A DNA stretch of 64,000 bases from the human T2T-CHM13v2.0 reference genome, Homo sapiens: assembly GCF_009914755.1 (NCBI RefSeq), contig NC_060940.1; one strand, written 5' to 3'. The position numbers and the translations under genes are program-made. The notes under the pieces were generated by a model. That model was not told the origin of the DNA and searched no databases. It saw only the letters and a program-made list of their open reading frames with translations. Below are positions 1,635 through 45,960 of the stretch, one piece after another; position 1 is the stretch's first letter, and every line of letters begins with the position of its first letter.

Positions 1635-1724
1635 GGCTGGGCGCAGTGGCTCACACCTGAAATCCGAGCACTGTGGGAGGCCGAGGCAGGACGATCACTT
1701 GAGGCCAGTAGCAGGGCACAAAAA
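1635..1724 (+). repeat. Left part of the host Alu interrupted at SVA-1 (continues at 45772)
   Basis: Alu left-arm sequence ending at acaaaaa, immediately before the SVA poly-T. Confidence 0.75.
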
Positions 1725-3186
1725 TTTTTTTTTTTTTTTTTTTTTTTTTTTAGTATTTATTGATCATTCTTGGGTGTTTATCGGAGAGGGGGATTTGGCA
1801 GGGTCATAGGACAATAGTGGAGGGAAGGTCAGCAGATAAACGTGAACAAGGGTCTCTGGTTTTCCTAGGCAGAGGGCCCTGCGGCCTTCCGCAGCGTTTG
1901 TATCCCTGGGTACTTGAGATTAGGGAGTGGTGATGACTCTTAACGAGCATGCTGCCTTCAAGCATCTGTTTAACAAAGCACATCTTGCACCGCCCTTAAT
2001 CCATTTAACCCTGAGTGGACACAGCATATGTTTCAGAGAGCATGGGGTTGGGGGTAAGGTTATAGATTAACAGCATCCCAAGGCAGAAGAATTTTTCTTA
2101 GTACAGAACAAAATGGAGTCTCCTATGTCTACTTCTTTCTACACACGCACAGTAACAATCTGATCTCTCTCTCTTTTCCCCACATTTCTCCCTTTTCTAT
2201 TTGACAAAACCGCCATCGTCATCATGGCCCATTCTCAATGAGCTGTTGGGTACACCTCCCAGACGGGGTGGCGGCCGGGCAGAGGGGCTCCTCACCTCCC
2301 AGATGGGGCGGCCGGGCAGAGGTGCCCACCTCCCGGACGGGGTGGCGGCTGCGTGAGGGCTGCCCCCCACCTCCCTCCCGGACGGGGCGGCTGGCCTGGA
2401 GGGGGCTTACCCCCACCTCCCTCCCGGACAGGGTGGCTGCCGGGCGGAGGGGCTCCTCACTTCTCAGACGGGGCGGTCGCCAGGCAGAGGGTCTCCTCAC
2501 TTCTCAGACGGGGCGGCCGGGCAGAGACGCTCCTCACCTCCCAGACGGGGTCGCGGCCGGGCAGAGGCACTCCCCACATCTCAGACGATGGGCGGCCTGG
2601 CAGAGACGCTCCTCACCTCCCAGATGGGATGGCGGCCGGGCAGAGACGCTCCTCACTTTCCAGACTGGGCAGCCAGGCAGAGGGGCTCCTCACATCCCAG
2701 ACGATGGGCGGCCAGGCAGAGACGCTCCTCACTTCCCAGACGGGGTGGCGGCCGGGCAGAGGCTGCAATCTCGGCACTTTGGGAGGCCAAAGCAGGCGGT
2801 TGGGAGGTGGAGGTTGTAGCGAGCCGAGATCACGGCACTGCACTCCAGCCTGGGCACCATTGAGCACTGAGTGAACGAGACTCCGTCTGCAATCCCAGCA
2901 CCTCGGGAGGCCGAGGCTGGTGGATCACTAGCGGTTAGGAGCTGGAGACCGGCCCGGCCAACACAGCGAAACCCCGTCTCCACCAAAAAAATACGAAAAC
3001 CAGTCAGGCGTGGCGGCGCGCGCCTGCAATCACAGGCACTCGGCAGGCTGAGGCAGGAGAATGAGGCAGGGAGGTTGCAGTGAGCCAAGATGGCAGCAGT
3101 ACAGTCCAGCTTCGGCTCGGCATCAGAGGGAGACCGTGGAAAGAGGGGGAGAGGGAGACTGTGGGGAGGGAGAGGGAGAGGGAGAG
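1725..3186 (-). mobile_element. SVA retrotransposon (SVA-1), near full length
   Basis: On the + strand: poly-T (1725-1751), tttatt poly(A) signal (1756-1761), SINE-R, GC-rich VNTR (~2255-2760), Alu-like region and AGGGAG hexamer remnant (~3145-3186). Confidence 0.95.
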
Positions 3187-3375
3187 CCTGTTTCTAATAA
3201 ATATACAAAATCAGCAAGGCATGGTGGCACGCACCTGTAATCCCAGCTACTTGGGAGGGTGCAGCAGGAGAATCGCTTGAACCCAGGAGGCAGAGGTTGC
3301 AGTGAGCTGAGATCGTGCTATTGCACTCCAGCCTGGGCAACGAGAGTGAAACTCCATCTCAAAAAAAAAAAAAAC
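3187..3375 (+). repeat. Right part of an Alu whose left part lies at 44065-44176
   Basis: Starts mid-Alu at cctgtttctaataaatatacaaaa and runs through the right arm to an A tail. Confidence 0.8.
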
Positions 3376-4484
3376 ACGAAAATAAAACGGCATTTAGAGT
3401 TGAAAGCTTCGCCTTCCTCTCTGGATGGTGAGTCCTCACTCTCCCAGCAGCCCACACCTCTGCCTCAAACCTCCATGGCTCCCAAGAGTCTGGATAAAGC
3501 TAAGGAGTCTCAACGCACCCCAAGTCCTGGGGGTAGTCAGCCCCTCTCACCCCTCCCTCATCCTCTCACACAAGAGTTGTTTACTGTTCCTCCAGTTATG
3601 CCTGGTCACGCAGACACTCTGCTGCTCAAATGCCCTCACCCCATCCTCAGCCTGCTCCCAGGCCACCTCCCTCCAGAATCCACCCTGCCTGCCAGGTGGC
3701 CATAGGGACCCTCGCCATACTGTCTGCTTGTGGCAGTGCCCTCCGGCCTGGGGGGTCTTCCAGAGCAGATCTCTGGCCTAGTGCAGTGGCTCATGCCTGT
3801 AATCTCAGCACTTTCAGAGGCCAAGGCAGGTGGATCACCTGAGGTCAGGAGTTCGAGACCAGCCTTGCTAACATGGTGAAACCCCGTCTCTACTAAAAAT
3901 ACAAAAATTAGCCAGGTGTGGTGGTGCACGCCTGTAGTCCCAGCTACTCAGGAGGCTGAGGCAGGAGAATCTCTTGGACCCGGGAGGTGGAGGTTGCAGT
4001 GAGCTGAAATGGTGCCACTGCACTCCAGCCTGGGCAACAGTGAGACTGTCTTAAAAAAAAAAAAAAGATCTCTGATATAAGCTCCCCTGGCACACAGTGA
4101 GCTTCCAGAAATGGTCCCTCGACCTCTAAATCCACCAAGACCCAGGGAACACGCCCACTCTGAGCACCCTGACAATGTCCCAGTCCCAACACAGTACCCT
4201 GAAGCTGTCCCCAAAGTTTCCCCTGCCACACTCCCTGACCACACTCTGGTATCTCAGAGCCCTAGCAACAGCCCTATAGAGGGAGGGTTCTAGGTATGGG
4301 GCAGGCATGAGCACTGCTTATAACCAAGCAAAACACTCCCTCTGTGCCAACATAGGTGGGGCAGGTCACGCTGGGGTCTGTTTGCCCTGTCTGCCCGCTG
4401 CAGCCTCCTCGGGGAGGGCCAGGGTTGTCTGTGCATCCTGTGAGCCCCAGGGTCTATGTGCACATATGTGTGTCTGTGCTGCTC

Positions 4485-44064: not shown

Positions 44065-44176
44065 GGCCAGGCACAGTGGCTCATGCCTGTAATCCCAGCA
44101 CTTTGGGAGGCCAAGGTGGGCAGATCACCTGAAGTCAGGAGTTCCAGACCAGCCTGACCAACATGGAGAAACCATG
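44065..44176 (+). repeat. Left arm of an Alu interrupted at SVA-2 (continues at 3187)
   Basis: Ends at aacatggagaaaccatg, immediately before the SVA poly-T. Confidence 0.8.
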
Positions 44177-45771
44177 TTTTTTTTTTTTTTTTTTTATTGA
44201 TCATTCTTGGGTGTTTCTCGCAGAGGTGGATTTGGCAGGGTCATAGGACAATAGCGGAGGGAAGGTCAGCAGATAAACAAGTGAACAAAGGTCTCTGGTT
44301 TTCCTAGGCAGAGGACCCTGCGGCCTTCCGCAGTGTTTGTGTCCCTGGGTACTTGAGATTAGGGAGTGGTGATGACTCTTAACGAGCATGCTGCCTTCAA
44401 GCATCTGTTTAACAAAGCACATCTTGCACCACCCTTAATCCATTTAACCCTGAGTGGACACAGCACATGTTTCAGAGAGCACAGGGTTGGGGTAAGGTCA
44501 CAGATCAACAGGATCCCAAGGCAGAAGAATTTTTCTTACTACAGAACAAAATGAAAAGTCTCCCATGTCTACTTCCTTCTACACAGACACGGCAACCATC
44601 CGATTTCTCAATCTTTTCCCCACCTTTCCCCCCTTTCTATTCCACAAAACCGCCACTGTCATCATGGCCCGTTCTCAATGAGCTGTTGGGCACACCTCCC
44701 AGCCGGGGTGGCGGCCGGGCAGAGTCGCCCCTCACCTCCCGGACAGGGCGGCTGGCCGGGTGGGGGGCTGACCCCCCCACCTCCCTCCCGGGTGGGGCGG
44801 CTGGTTGGGCGGGGGACTGATCCCCCCACCTCCCTCCCGGGTGGGGCGGCTGGCCGGGCGGGGGGGCTGACTCCCCCACCTCCCTCCCGGACGGGGCGGC
44901 TGGCCGGGCGTGGGGGCTGACCCCCACCTCCCTCCCGGACGGGGTGGCTGCCGGGCGGAGACGCTCTTCACTTCCCAGACGGGGTGGCTGCCGGGCGGAG
45001 GGGCTCCTCACTTCTCAGACGAGGCGGCTGCCGGGCGGAGGGGCTCCTCACTTCTCAGAGGGGGCGGTCGCCAGGCAGAGGGTCTCCTCACTTCTCAGAC
45101 GCTCCTCACCTCCCAGACGGGGTCGCGGCCGGGCAGAGGCACTCCCCACATCTCAGACGATGGGCAGCCTGGCAGAGACGCTCCTCACCTCCCAGATGGG
45201 ATGGCGGCCGGGAAGAGGCGCTCCTCACTTCCTAGATGGGATGGCGGCCGGGCAGAGAGGCTCCTCACTTTCCAGACTGGGCAGCCAGGCAGAGGGGCTC
45301 CTCACATCCCAGATGATGGGCGGCCAGGCAGAGACGCTCCTCACTTCCCAGACGGGGTGGCGGCCGGGCAGAGGCTGCAAAATCTCGGCACTTTGGGAGG
45401 CCAAGGCAGGCGGTTGAGAGGTGGAGGTTGTAGCGAGCCGAGATCATGCCACTGCACTCCAGCCTGGGCACCATTGAGCACTGAGTGAACGAGACTCCGT
45501 CTGCAATCCCAGCACCTCGGGAGGCCGAGGCTGGCGGATCACTAGCGGTCAGGAGCTGGAGACCAGCCCGGCCAACACGGCGAAACCCCGTCTCCACCAA
45601 AAAACACAGACGGCGCGTGCCTGCAATCCCAGGCACTTGGCAGGCTGAGGCAGGAGAATGAGGCAGGGAGGTTGCAGTGAGCCGAGATGGTGGCAGTACA
45701 GTCCAGCCTCGGCTCGGCATCAGAGGGAGACTGTGGAAAGTGGGAGAGGAAGGGGGAGGGGGAGGGAGAGG
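44177..45771 (-). mobile_element. SVA retrotransposon (SVA-2), near full length, same orientation as SVA-1
   Basis: Poly-T, tttatt, SINE-R, VNTR (~44695-45370), Alu-like region and hexamer remnant (~45742-45771). Confidence 0.95.
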
Positions 45772-45960
45772 ACAAAAAATTAAAATTTAGCCGGACATGG
45801 TTGTGTGTGCCAGTAGTCCAAGCTGCTGGGGAGACTGAGGCAGGAGGATCACTTGAGCCCAGGAACTTAAGGTCTATTTAAGTAAAGGGTACAGTGAGCT
45901 GTGATTATACCACTGCACTCCAGCCTGGGGAATAGAGCAAGACCCTGTCTCTAAAAAAAG
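45772..45960 (+). repeat. Right part of the host Alu (AluJ-like) whose left part is at 1635-1724
   Basis: Starts at the Alu linker acaaaaaattaaaatttagcc and runs to the A tail. Confidence 0.75.

What the first reader, a model, noticed from the sequence alone, without database searches (positions are those of the whole stretch)
1635..45960. NPIP duplicon bracketed by two SVAs with crosswise-matching flanks: footprint of a circular DNA integrated by SVA x SVA recombination
Seen: neither SVA has a matching TSD on its own two sides, but the flanks pair crosswise. The outer pair is acaaaaatt (1718-1726) and acaaaaaatt (45772-45781), and joining 1635-1724 to 45772-45960 rebuilds one internally deleted Alu. 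The inner pair is ccatgtttt (44172-44180) and cctgtttct/aa (3187-3197, an L1-endonuclease-type site). Joining 44065-44176 to 3187-3375 rebuilds a second Alu with its own degenerate TSD (taaaacacattt 44051-44062 and taaaacggcattt 3383-3395). Inference: two independent SVA insertions recombined once, one resident downstream of EIF3C and one in a ~42.5-kb donor circle carrying PLA2G10P and NPIP, like an attP x attB integration. The SVA acts here as a DNA recombination handle, not an RNA intermediate. I recall a published model of SVA-mediated circular integration for lcr16a (Damert 2022), so this may be a rediscovery and should be verified.
Basis: partly seen in the sequence, partly recalled or inferred. 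Interest (0 to 1): 0.9.

Follow-up and report, generated by a model that had tools for sequence, protein, structure and literature searches.

The report
Published SVA-bracketed NPIPB9 founder cassette
Two SVA retrotransposons that swapped halves bracket a 41-kb PLA2G10-NPIP segment next to EIF3C, which is the already published founding insertion of the human NPIPB gene family, probably made through a DNA circle.

Summary
Two antisense SVAs (1727-3186 and 44178-45771) lack target-site duplications of their own, but their flanks pair crosswise, and each pair rebuilds one Alu. Damert 2022 (PMC9132208, Fig. 4, Table S5) describes this same NPIPB9 locus as a PLA2G10-NPIP circle integrated by SVA_D x SVA_B recombination.

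Three points were re-tested here.
- The inner target site is unfilled and contiguous in 5 paralogous PLA2G10 intron-1 copies of the same genome.
- The two SVAs are reciprocal chimeras, shown by nearest-relative lists without any consensus.
- The outer flanks abut in macaque, but only according to the paper's table.

The new result is about the junction between the NPIP 3' end and PLA2G10 intron 3, which the paper assigns to circle closure.
- This adjacency occurs in 27 of 27 human NPIP copies.
- That includes 8 NPIPA-type copies, and 4 of the 4 that reach the SVA site have it empty.
- At 14.72-14.77 Mb the order is linear: PLA2G10 piece, NPIP, PLA2G10 piece.

So the donor probably already carried direct PLA2G10 repeats. 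A circle could arise by pop-out between them, and a linear tandem donor cannot be excluded. Novelty: already known.

The parts
1635..1726 (+). Left half of the outer Alu (site downstream of EIF3C), ending in outer TSD copy acaaaaatt (1718-1726)
1727..3186 (-). SVA1, full-length antisense SVA. The 3' (SINE-R) part is of the older type and the 5' (Alu-like) part of the younger type. The paper calls it D/B.
   Evidence: PMC9132208 Table S5
3187..3375 (+). Right half of the inner Alu (PLA2G10 intron 1), starting with inner TSD copy cctgtttct (3187-3195)
3187..4177 (+). R: PLA2G10 intron-1 sequence right of the SVA site. It is also present after the empty site in 4 NPIPA-type copies, which end at the equivalent of 4177.
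4178..16363 (+). X: PLA2G10 exon-1 side and intergenic DNA, including PAWRP2. It is colinear only with 14.73-14.74 Mb and is unusually diverged from it.
16364..37102 (+). lcr16a core with NPIPB9, ending in the ancestral-type 63-bp coding repeat array (36871-37094)
   Evidence: annotation given with the finding
37103..37393 (+). Junction J and the 3' half of the Alu of PLA2G10 intron 3. Part of it is amplified into a 42-bp array (37122-37283), and it carries the annotated end of the NPIPB9 coding sequence (37343). This stretch is absent from the 8 NPIPA-type copies (J').
37394..44176 (+). L: PLA2G10 intron 3, exons 3 and 2 (PLA2G10KP), and intron 1 left of the SVA site. It ends in the left half of the inner Alu (44065-44176) with the mutated TSD copy ccatgttt.
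44178..45771 (-). SVA2, full-length antisense SVA. The 3' (SINE-R) part is of the younger type and the 5' (Alu-like) part of the older type. The paper calls it B/D.
   Evidence: PMC9132208 Table S5
45772..45960 (+). Right half of the outer Alu, starting with outer TSD copy acaaaaaatt (45772-45781)

Best explanation
This is the NPIPB9 founder cassette. One SVA (older type, SVA_B in the paper) had inserted by L1-type retrotransposition into an Alu downstream of EIF3C. Another SVA (younger type, SVA_D) had inserted into an Alu in PLA2G10 intron 1, next to NPIP at 16p13. One in-register homologous exchange between the two SVAs then placed about 41 kb between the halves of the resident SVA. The order of that insert is intron-1 right side, exon-1 side, NPIP, intron 3, exons 3 and 2, intron-1 left side. 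The result is two reciprocal chimeric SVAs with crosswise TSDs. This outcome needs a donor in which the two sides of the SVA_D site are joined through NPIP. The simplest such donor is a circle, as published. My refinement is inferred, not shown. The join between the NPIP 3' end and PLA2G10 intron 3 was probably not made by circle closure. It probably already existed on a chromosome that carried PLA2G10 fragments as direct repeats on both sides of NPIP. In that case the circle arose by homologous pop-out between those repeats after SVA_D had inserted into one of them.
For: Shown here.
- The strings and coordinates are exact.
- Both Alus rebuild across the crosswise joins.
- The inner site reads ...gagaaaccCTGTTTCTactaaaa... 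unfilled in 4 NPIPA-type copies and in the PLA2G10-side copy at 14.73 Mb, 5 of 5 non-cassette copies.
- All 7 of 7 NPIPB-type copies have the SVA there, and 3 of them keep the unmutated TSD ccctgtttct.
- Chimerism: the top lists for the two SINE-R parts are disjoint, at 98-99% for SVA2 and 96-97% for SVA1.
- The top hits of SVA1's Alu-like part lie on 5 of 38 elements of SVA2's SINE-R list and on 0 of 38 of its own list.
- The top hits of SVA2's Alu-like part lie on 1 of 36 elements of SVA1's SINE-R list and on 0 of 36 of its own list.
- Both SVAs are colinear and full-length.

From the paper.
- Macaque coordinates of the outer flanks overlap by 7 bp, and the inner pieces are contiguous there (Table S5).
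- The same cassette is present in chimpanzee, and both SVAs are found in gorilla reads (section 7).

For the refinement.
- 27 of 27 NPIP 3' ends on chr16 and chr18 are followed by PLA2G10 intron 3.
- 19 are J-type and 8 are J'-type, starting 292 bp further into the intron.
- The NPIP repeat is cut 8 nt apart in J and J'.
- At 14.72-14.77 Mb the chromosome reads PLA2G10 piece, X, NPIP, J', PLA2G10 piece.
- The window follows the first piece's continuity into X and the second piece's adjacency to NPIP.
- L is closer to the NPIPA-side piece (1.7% at non-CpG sites) than to the PLA2G10-side piece (3.4-3.8%).
Against: - No circle, excision scar or donor copy with an SVA in PLA2G10 intron 1 exists in this genome.
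- No solo-SVA or empty outer site exists either. The outer-left flank has 2 copies and the outer-right flank 4, all with the cassette junctions.
- No outgroup genome could be searched here, so outer adjacency rests on the paper's table alone.
- J and J' could be two independent junctions. I judge that unlikely only by parsimony.
- In the last 1.8 kb of L the NPIPB copies are equidistant from both PLA2G10 pieces. No clean switch from one piece to the other was found, so there is no visible trace of a pop-out crossover.
- X is 4.8-8.1% diverged at non-CpG sites from its only full paralogue, against 1.6-2.4% for the NPIP body. No model, including this one, predicts that.
- The chimera test rests on 6 shared elements out of the top-40 lists.
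Confidence: 0.65

Rival explanations
1. Linear tandem donor, no circle. Unequal exchange between the two PLA2G10 pieces that flank NPIP made a donor array with an SVA_D at the intron-1 site in two successive units. The stretch from SVA_D to SVA_D was then copied or exchanged into the resident SVA_B. This could happen by double crossover, or by break-induced or synthesis-dependent repair primed from a break in SVA_B.
For: The direct repeats that such an unequal exchange needs do exist on a linear chromosome, about 6.8-7.7 kb on both sides of NPIP at 14.72-14.77 Mb. The junction inside the cassette is shared with linear NPIPA-type copies. The product would be identical in sequence to a circle integration.
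Against: No extant copy has an SVA at the site outside the cassette lineage, with 5 of 5 empty. No array with two filled sites is present. This route needs an extra duplication step and either two crossovers or about 41 kb of repair synthesis, where a circle needs one crossover.
Confidence: 0.2
2. Replicative template switching without a physical circle. A broken or stalled end in SVA_B invaded the single SVA_D and copied through X and NPIP into the downstream PLA2G10 piece. It then switched by homology to the upstream PLA2G10 piece, ran back into the same SVA_D, and returned to SVA_B.
For: It uses the same duplicated PLA2G10 pieces and needs only one SVA_D. Replication-based models are invoked in the same paper for the chr18 lcr16a copy (section 8).
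Against: There are no microhomology junctions, inserted nucleotides or inverted pieces at the four junctions, all of which are clean and in register. No switch point was seen in L.
Confidence: 0.1
3. Published order of events. An SVA_D-bearing PLA2G10-NPIP stretch circularised de novo, and that closure created the join between NPIP 3' and intron 3. The similar join in NPIPA-type copies is then an independent event.
For: This is the model as printed (PMC9132208 section 7 and Fig. 4 legend). J and J' differ by 292 bp on the PLA2G10 side. In the 1.8 kb next to the SVA site NPIPB is no closer to the NPIPA piece than to the PLA2G10-side piece.
Against: It needs two independent joins of the NPIP terminal repeat array to the same 300 bp of PLA2G10 intron 3, cut 8 nt apart in the repeat unit. 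No human NPIP copy retains a different downstream sequence, 0 of 27. Over its whole length L is closer to the NPIPA piece.
Confidence: 0.25

Closest known systems
NPIPB9 lcr16a cassette of Damert 2022 (Mol Biol Evol 39:msac103; PMC9132208, Fig. 4, Table S5)
   Same: It is the same locus: hg38 chr16:28,737,136-28,781,237, downstream of EIF3C. The paper reports two full-length reciprocal SVA_B/SVA_D chimeras, outer TSDs at the EIF3C site, inner TSDs in PLA2G10 intron 1, and PLA2G10 exons 3 and 2 behind NPIP. Its model is a circle integrated by SVA x SVA recombination.
   Different: Nothing in the structure differs. My reading differs on the order of events. The paper has the NPIP 3'/intron 3 join made by circularisation of an SVA_D-bearing copy. 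I find that adjacency in all 27 human NPIP copies, including SVA-free NPIPA-type ones. The paper's Table S5 maps only NPIPB copies and ape clones, and 'NPIPA' has 0 occurrences in the supplement text. Its supplementary figures are a PDF I could not read and may bear on this.
Segmental duplication through circular DNA intermediates (Chicote et al. 2020, cited in PMC9132208; not read here)
   Same: A duplicated block is circularly permuted relative to its source.
   Different: [quoted passage not shown] Here both junctions lie in register inside a 1.5-kb retrotransposon.
Integration of a circle by one crossover between homologous sites
   Same: The topology is the same: one exchange, two hybrid sites flanking the insert, and crosswise flanks.
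   Different: There is no site-specific recombinase or att core. The exchange is general homologous recombination between diverged (homeologous) SVA copies.
'Partial AluY insertion in exon 8' of NPIPB (Cantsilieris et al. 2020, PMC7419210; passages read)
   Same: It is the same Alu-derived stretch that creates the NPIPB-specific C-terminal repeat (window 37103-37345).
   Different: In the window this Alu half is contiguous with PLA2G10 intron-3 sequence, exactly as in the PLA2G10-side copy at 14.7245 Mb. It therefore looks like the captured breakpoint Alu of the junction, not a retrotransposed insertion.

Membership tests
SVA retrotransposon inserted by L1 machinery | Composite order: hexamer repeat, Alu-like, VNTR, SINE-R, poly(A) | tested here: met
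   Both elements read T run, SINE-R, VNTR, Alu-like, (GAGGGA)n on the + strand. Their parts match hundreds to thousands of dispersed genomic copies (first-look candidates 1535-6021). The domain names are recalled.
SVA retrotransposon inserted by L1 machinery | Each insertion flanked by its own target-site duplication at an L1-endonuclease-type site | tested here: not met
   Neither element has matching flanks on its own two sides. The TSDs match only crosswise. That is the finding: each present element is a recombinant of two insertions.
SVA x SVA recombination cassette (Damert 2022) | Reciprocal chimeras of two subfamilies | tested here: met
   Cross-sharing of nearest relatives was 5/38 and 1/36, against 0/38 and 0/36 for same-element sharing. 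The subfamily names B and D come from the paper and were not assigned here.
SVA x SVA recombination cassette (Damert 2022) | Inner flanks contiguous at an unfilled site in PLA2G10 intron 1 | tested here: met
   The site is empty in 5 of 5 non-cassette copies. Flank spacing is 319 bp at 16.41 Mb.
SVA x SVA recombination cassette (Damert 2022) | Outer flanks adjacent in genomes lacking the cassette | not testable with these tools
   No outgroup genome is held, and this genome has no empty or solo-SVA outer site. The paper's Table S5 gives macaque coordinates ending at 26,949,359 and starting at 26,949,365.
Duplication through a circular intermediate | Insert circularly permuted relative to the single-copy ancestral order | tested here: inconclusive
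   The insert is permuted relative to macaque per Table S5. It is not permuted relative to the human chromosome at 14.72-14.77 Mb, where the same order exists linearly between two PLA2G10 pieces.
Duplication through a circular intermediate | A closure junction unique to the circle-derived copies | tested here: not met
   The NPIP 3'/PLA2G10 intron-3 adjacency is present in 27 of 27 NPIP copies, including 8 NPIPA-type copies. The NPIPA form is 292 bp shorter.
Duplication through a circular intermediate | Physical circle or reciprocal excision product observed | not testable with these tools

The most novel reading that the evidence does not exclude
The join between the NPIP 3' end and PLA2G10 intron 3 is older than the SVA_D insertion and is ancestral to all human NPIP genes, both NPIPA and NPIPB. 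The donor was therefore a chromosome with PLA2G10 fragments as direct repeats around NPIP. The mobilised unit was released by homologous exchange between those repeats, not by end-joining of a linear piece. The NPIPB-specific C-terminal repeat and stop codon would then be the breakpoint Alu of PLA2G10 intron 3 captured at that join, not a 'partial AluY insertion'. The NPIPA form would be a derivative that lost about 300 bp by deletion.
Probability: 0.5. Interest if true: 0.5.

Novelty: already known. Interest (0 to 1): 0.25.

Why it matters
The structure matters as the seeding event of the NPIPB expansion on 16p. That family evolves fast and sits at disease-associated rearrangement hotspots. 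The structure is also one of the few cases where a retrotransposon served as a DNA homology handle for moving 40 kb. All of this is already in print, so the finding adds no new biology as stated. The possible addition is the order of events. If the internal junction predates the SVA insertion, circle formation has a simple homologous route. The published scheme of de novo circularisation would need revising. The origin of the NPIPB C-terminus would also be tied to that same junction.

Tried and rejected
I used coordinate lists from searches instead.
3. I looked for the UBE3A processed pseudogene, which lies behind NPIP in macaque and orang-utan per PMC9132208. I scanned open frames of the 18 kb after the NPIPA-side PLA2G10 piece against Pfam, submitting 80 of the 116 frames of 60 aa or more. 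None had any family (0 of 80), so this gave no information.
4. A 1.2-kb stretch (39653-40866) is present in the window and the NPIPA piece but absent from the PLA2G10-side copy. I considered it as a shared insertion. I rejected that because the copy lacking it shows a fused pair of inverted Alus, which points to a deletion specific to that copy.
5. I searched for a single switch from c2-like to c1-like sequence in L as a trace of a pop-out crossover. There was no clean switch, and one dense block (39347-41764) is probably affected by that deletion and by Alu misalignment.
6. MAFFT alignment of the Alu halves to a ruler Alu put right monomers on left monomers and was discarded. It was replaced by global pairwise alignment.
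7. I rejected the idea that the cassette is a non-homologous insertion into an SVA, because both SVAs are colinear and complete.
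Full report
**What is there.** The window holds two antisense SVA elements, SVA1 at 1727-3186 and SVA2 at 44178-45771. 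On the + strand each reads T run, SINE-R, VNTR, Alu-like part and (GAGGGA)n. Apart from Alus they are the only long direct repeats in the 64 kb. These are families D8 and D9, 96% identical, 42.4-42.6 kb apart.

All strings and coordinates in the finding are exact.
- SVA1 is flanked by acaaaaatt on the left and cctgtttct on the right.
- SVA2 is flanked by ccatgtttt on the left and acaaaaaatt on the right.
- Neither element therefore has a target-site duplication of its own, and the flanks pair crosswise.
- The left flank of SVA1 and the right flank of SVA2 are the two parts of one internally deleted Alu, joined in its A-rich linker.
- The left flank of SVA2 and the right flank of SVA1 are the two parts of a second Alu.

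**It is published.** A full-text search for lcr16a and SVA returned two papers. Damert 2022 (PMC9132208) describes exactly this locus. I read the abstract, sections 5, 7, 8 and 9, the Fig. 4 legend and supplementary tables S4-S6. The supplementary figures are a PDF I could not read.

The paper reports the following for the NPIPB9 copy, hg38 chr16:28,737,136-28,781,237, downstream of EIF3C.
- It is flanked by two full-length SVAs that are reciprocal SVA_B/SVA_D chimeras.
- The outer TSDs belong to the EIF3C site and the inner TSDs to PLA2G10 intron 1.
- PLA2G10 exons 3 and 2 lie behind NPIP.
- The model is a circle integrated by SVA_D x SVA_B recombination, the founding event of the NPIPB clade.

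Table S5 maps the outer flanks to macaque chr20 ending at 26,949,359 and starting at 26,949,365. They are adjacent there with a 7-bp overlap. It maps the two inner pieces to 14,684,597-14,725,829 and 14,677,227-14,684,598, which are contiguous.

**Independent checks in the window's own genome.**

Flank copy numbers:

| Flank | Window span | Copies found |
|---|---|---|
| Inner-left | 43850-44064 | 12 full-length on chr16: 7 at 99-100%, 5 at 96-97% |
| Inner-right | 3396-3700 | 2 at 100%, 4 at 96-97%, 2 partial |
| Outer-left | 1420-1634 | 2, including the window's own |
| Outer-right | 45961-46260 | 4, including the window's own |

- In the four 96-97% copies that have both inner flanks (14.77, 15.36, 16.41 and 18.32 Mb), the flanks are joined by an intact Alu. 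It reads ...gagaaaccCTGTTTCTactaaaa..., which is the unfilled site. The PLA2G10-side copy at 14.73 Mb is also unfilled.
- All seven 99-100% copies carry the SVA there. Three of them (30.60, 30.50 and 29.76 Mb) keep the unmutated TSD ccctgtttct. This shows that ccatgttt in the window is a later mutation.
- The first proposed check could not be run. All outer-flank copies carry the cassette junctions, so this genome has no empty or solo-SVA outer site, and no outgroup genome is held.

**Chimerism without a consensus.** The nearest genomic relatives of the two SINE-R parts form disjoint top-40 lists. SVA2's are 98-99% identical and SVA1's 96-97%.

| Query | Its non-paralogous top hits that lie on elements of SVA1's SINE-R list | ...and on elements of SVA2's SINE-R list |
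|---|---|---|
| SVA1 Alu-like part (top hits 96-97%) | 0 of 38 | 5 of 38 |
| SVA2 Alu-like part (top hits 91-93%) | 1 of 36 | 0 of 36 |

So the 5' part of each SVA is of the type of the other's 3' part. The numbers are small because only 40 candidates are scored per search. Both SVAs are colinear and complete, so the exchange was in register, meaning homologous. The switch must lie between the SINE-R and Alu-like parts, in the VNTR. There the two elements are nearly identical over about 240 bp, with 3 substitutions.

**The internal junction.** The paper says circularisation joined the NPIP 3' end to PLA2G10 intron 3. In the window the ancestral-type 63-bp NPIP repeat array (36871-37094) ends ...ctcaagactcctccc. 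It runs straight into ttagctactcaggagg..., the 3' half of an Alu.

That Alu half is contiguous with the following unique sequence. The same contiguity is seen in the PLA2G10-side copy at 14.7245 Mb, which has the whole Alu. Part of the Alu half is amplified into a 42-bp array (37122-37283). According to the annotation supplied with the finding, the NPIPB9 coding sequence ends inside it, at 37343.

Cantsilieris et al. 2020 call this a partial AluY insertion in exon 8 (PMC7419210, passages only). Here it looks like the breakpoint Alu of the junction.

**The junction is not confined to the cassette lineage.**
- A search with 37300-38700 found 29 long copies. Of these, 20 start at query base 1-6 (J-type, including the window's own). 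Another 8 start at base 95 (J'-type, all at 14.7-18.4 Mb). The last is the PLA2G10-side copy.
- A search with the NPIP 3' region (35300-36700) found 27 copies at 98% or more on chr16 and chr18. Each has one of these hits just downstream, 19 J and 8 J'.
- The eight J' copies match the eight LCR16a copies (seven NPIPA and NPIPP) that a 2025 preprint counts at 16p12.3-p13.11 in this assembly (passages only).
- In three J' copies read at base level, the NPIP repeat ends ...gatgataatctcaaga and continues aactaaggaagaataaat... This is J minus 8 nt of the repeat unit and 292 nt of PLA2G10 intron 3.
- Two independent joins this close are improbable. One join followed by a deletion of about 300 bp in the NPIPA lineage is simpler. 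This is an argument from parsimony, not a demonstration.

**A linear version of the cassette order.** At 14.72-14.77 Mb the chromosome reads as follows.

| Segment at 14.72-14.77 Mb | Coordinates | Window equivalent |
|---|---|---|
| PLA2G10 piece c1 | 14,724,532-14,730,228 | 37241-44179 |
| X | after c1 | 3775-16364 |
| NPIP | 14,745,779-14,763,599 | 16364-36888 |
| J' | | |
| PLA2G10 piece c2 | 14,763,811-14,771,556 | 37394-44179, then 3187-4177 |

- The stretch between the two SVAs in the window is colinear with the interior of this linear arrangement.
- c2 ends at the equivalent of 4177 in what looks like L1 sequence (label recalled). The window and c1 continue colinearly into X.
- The cassette therefore combines c1-type continuity on one side with the c2-type adjacency to NPIP on the other.

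**Consequence for the mechanism.** If J predates the SVA_D insertion, the donor had direct PLA2G10 repeats of about 7 kb around NPIP. An intrachromatid exchange between them would release a circle of one unit with one SVA_D. A single crossover with SVA_B would then give the observed product. I think this most likely (0.65 for SVA x SVA integration of a circle or circle-equivalent).

An unequal exchange would give two SVA_D-bearing units in line, from which a linear SVA-to-SVA copy could be taken (0.2). A replicative path with a homology-driven switch between c2 and c1 is a third option (0.1). Sequence in one genome cannot separate these. No extant copy has an SVA at the site outside the cassette lineage, with 5 of 5 empty.

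**Results that do not fit neatly.**

Non-CpG divergence of the window from the 14.7-Mb region:

| Window segment | Compared with | Non-CpG divergence |
|---|---|---|
| NPIP body | NPIP at 14.7 Mb | 1.6-2.4% |
| L | c2 | 1.7% |
| L | c1 | 3.4-3.8% |
| X | X at 14.7 Mb | 4.8-8.1% |

- Two partial X copies (29.39 and 22.28 Mb) are 2.3-3.0% from the window and about 4.4-5% from the 14.7-Mb X, counting all sites.
- The c1-X side at 14.7 Mb is thus an outlier. Either it is not the direct donor, or the NPIP body and c2 have been homogenised among the many copies.
- In the 1.8 kb next to the SVA site, NPIPB copies are equidistant from c1 and c2. Fixed differences are c1 42, c2 33 and NPIPB 15.
- No clean switch from c2-like to c1-like sequence was found.
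- Without an outgroup these trees cannot be rooted.

**Novelty.** The finding as stated is already known. Three points were not found in the texts I could search or read:
- the ubiquity of the junction among NPIPA copies with an empty SVA site;
- the linear PLA2G10-NPIP-PLA2G10 arrangement as a donor substrate;
- the identification of the NPIPB C-terminal Alu with the PLA2G10 intron-3 Alu.

'NPIPA' has 0 occurrences in the supplement of PMC9132208, and 'tandem dupl' has 0 in its main text. [quoted passage not shown] Figures and PDF supplements were not visible to me, so this may be partly in print.

Noticed in passing
L003, L004, L005 (C16 30.60, 30.50, 29.76 Mb), at the equivalent of window 44172-44200: These NPIPB copies keep the unmutated inner TSD (ccctgtttct). 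They also have a 17-nt insert between two T runs at the SVA 3' end, which could be a short 3' transduction or an interrupted tail. The window's SVA2 and three other copies have lost it.
   Followed up: partly
window 3775-16364 versus C16:14,730,115-14,742,297: The PLA2G10 exon-1 side of the cassette is 4.8-8.1% diverged (non-CpG) from its only full paralogue, against 1.6-2.4% for the NPIP body. The change is sharp at 16364, the first base of the lcr16a core and of NPIPB9 exon 1.
   Followed up: partly
window 37103-37345: The NPIPB9 C-terminal 42-bp repeat array and the annotated stop lie in the 3' half of an Alu. That Alu half is contiguous with PLA2G10 intron 3, so the 'partial AluY insertion' of the literature looks like a captured breakpoint Alu.
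   Followed up: yes
C16:14,726,880-14,727,000 and 14,730,115-14,730,410 (region A, loci L027/L028): The PLA2G10-side copy has two Alu-associated deletions relative to the window. About 1.2 kb is missing between a pair of inverted Alus (window 39653-40866). About 600 bp is missing between the inner Alu and the next Alu (window 3376-3785).
   Followed up: partly
C16:14,771,556 and 16,414,040 (loci L032, L034), equivalent of window 4177: The PLA2G10 piece behind NPIPA-type copies ends abruptly in L1-like sequence (label recalled). The following 7.4 kb are 98.9% identical between the 14.77 and 16.41 Mb copies.
   Followed up: partly
window 14541-15174: The PAWRP2 stretch matches chr12 at 79.67 Mb (68%) and a chr10 copy (79%), as expected of a processed pseudogene carried inside the cassette.
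   Followed up: no
C16:28.62-28.74 Mb: An inverted duplicate of the NPIPB8-EIF3C-NPIPB9 arrangement carries both cassette junctions. One is outer-left/SVA1/inner-right at 28.657-28.659 Mb. The other is inner-left/SVA2/outer-right at 28.728-28.731 Mb.
   Followed up: no
window 50948-51051: An annotated U13 snoRNA-like gene lies in the flank outside the cassette, with a second one 63 kb upstream of the window. Neither was examined.
   Followed up: no
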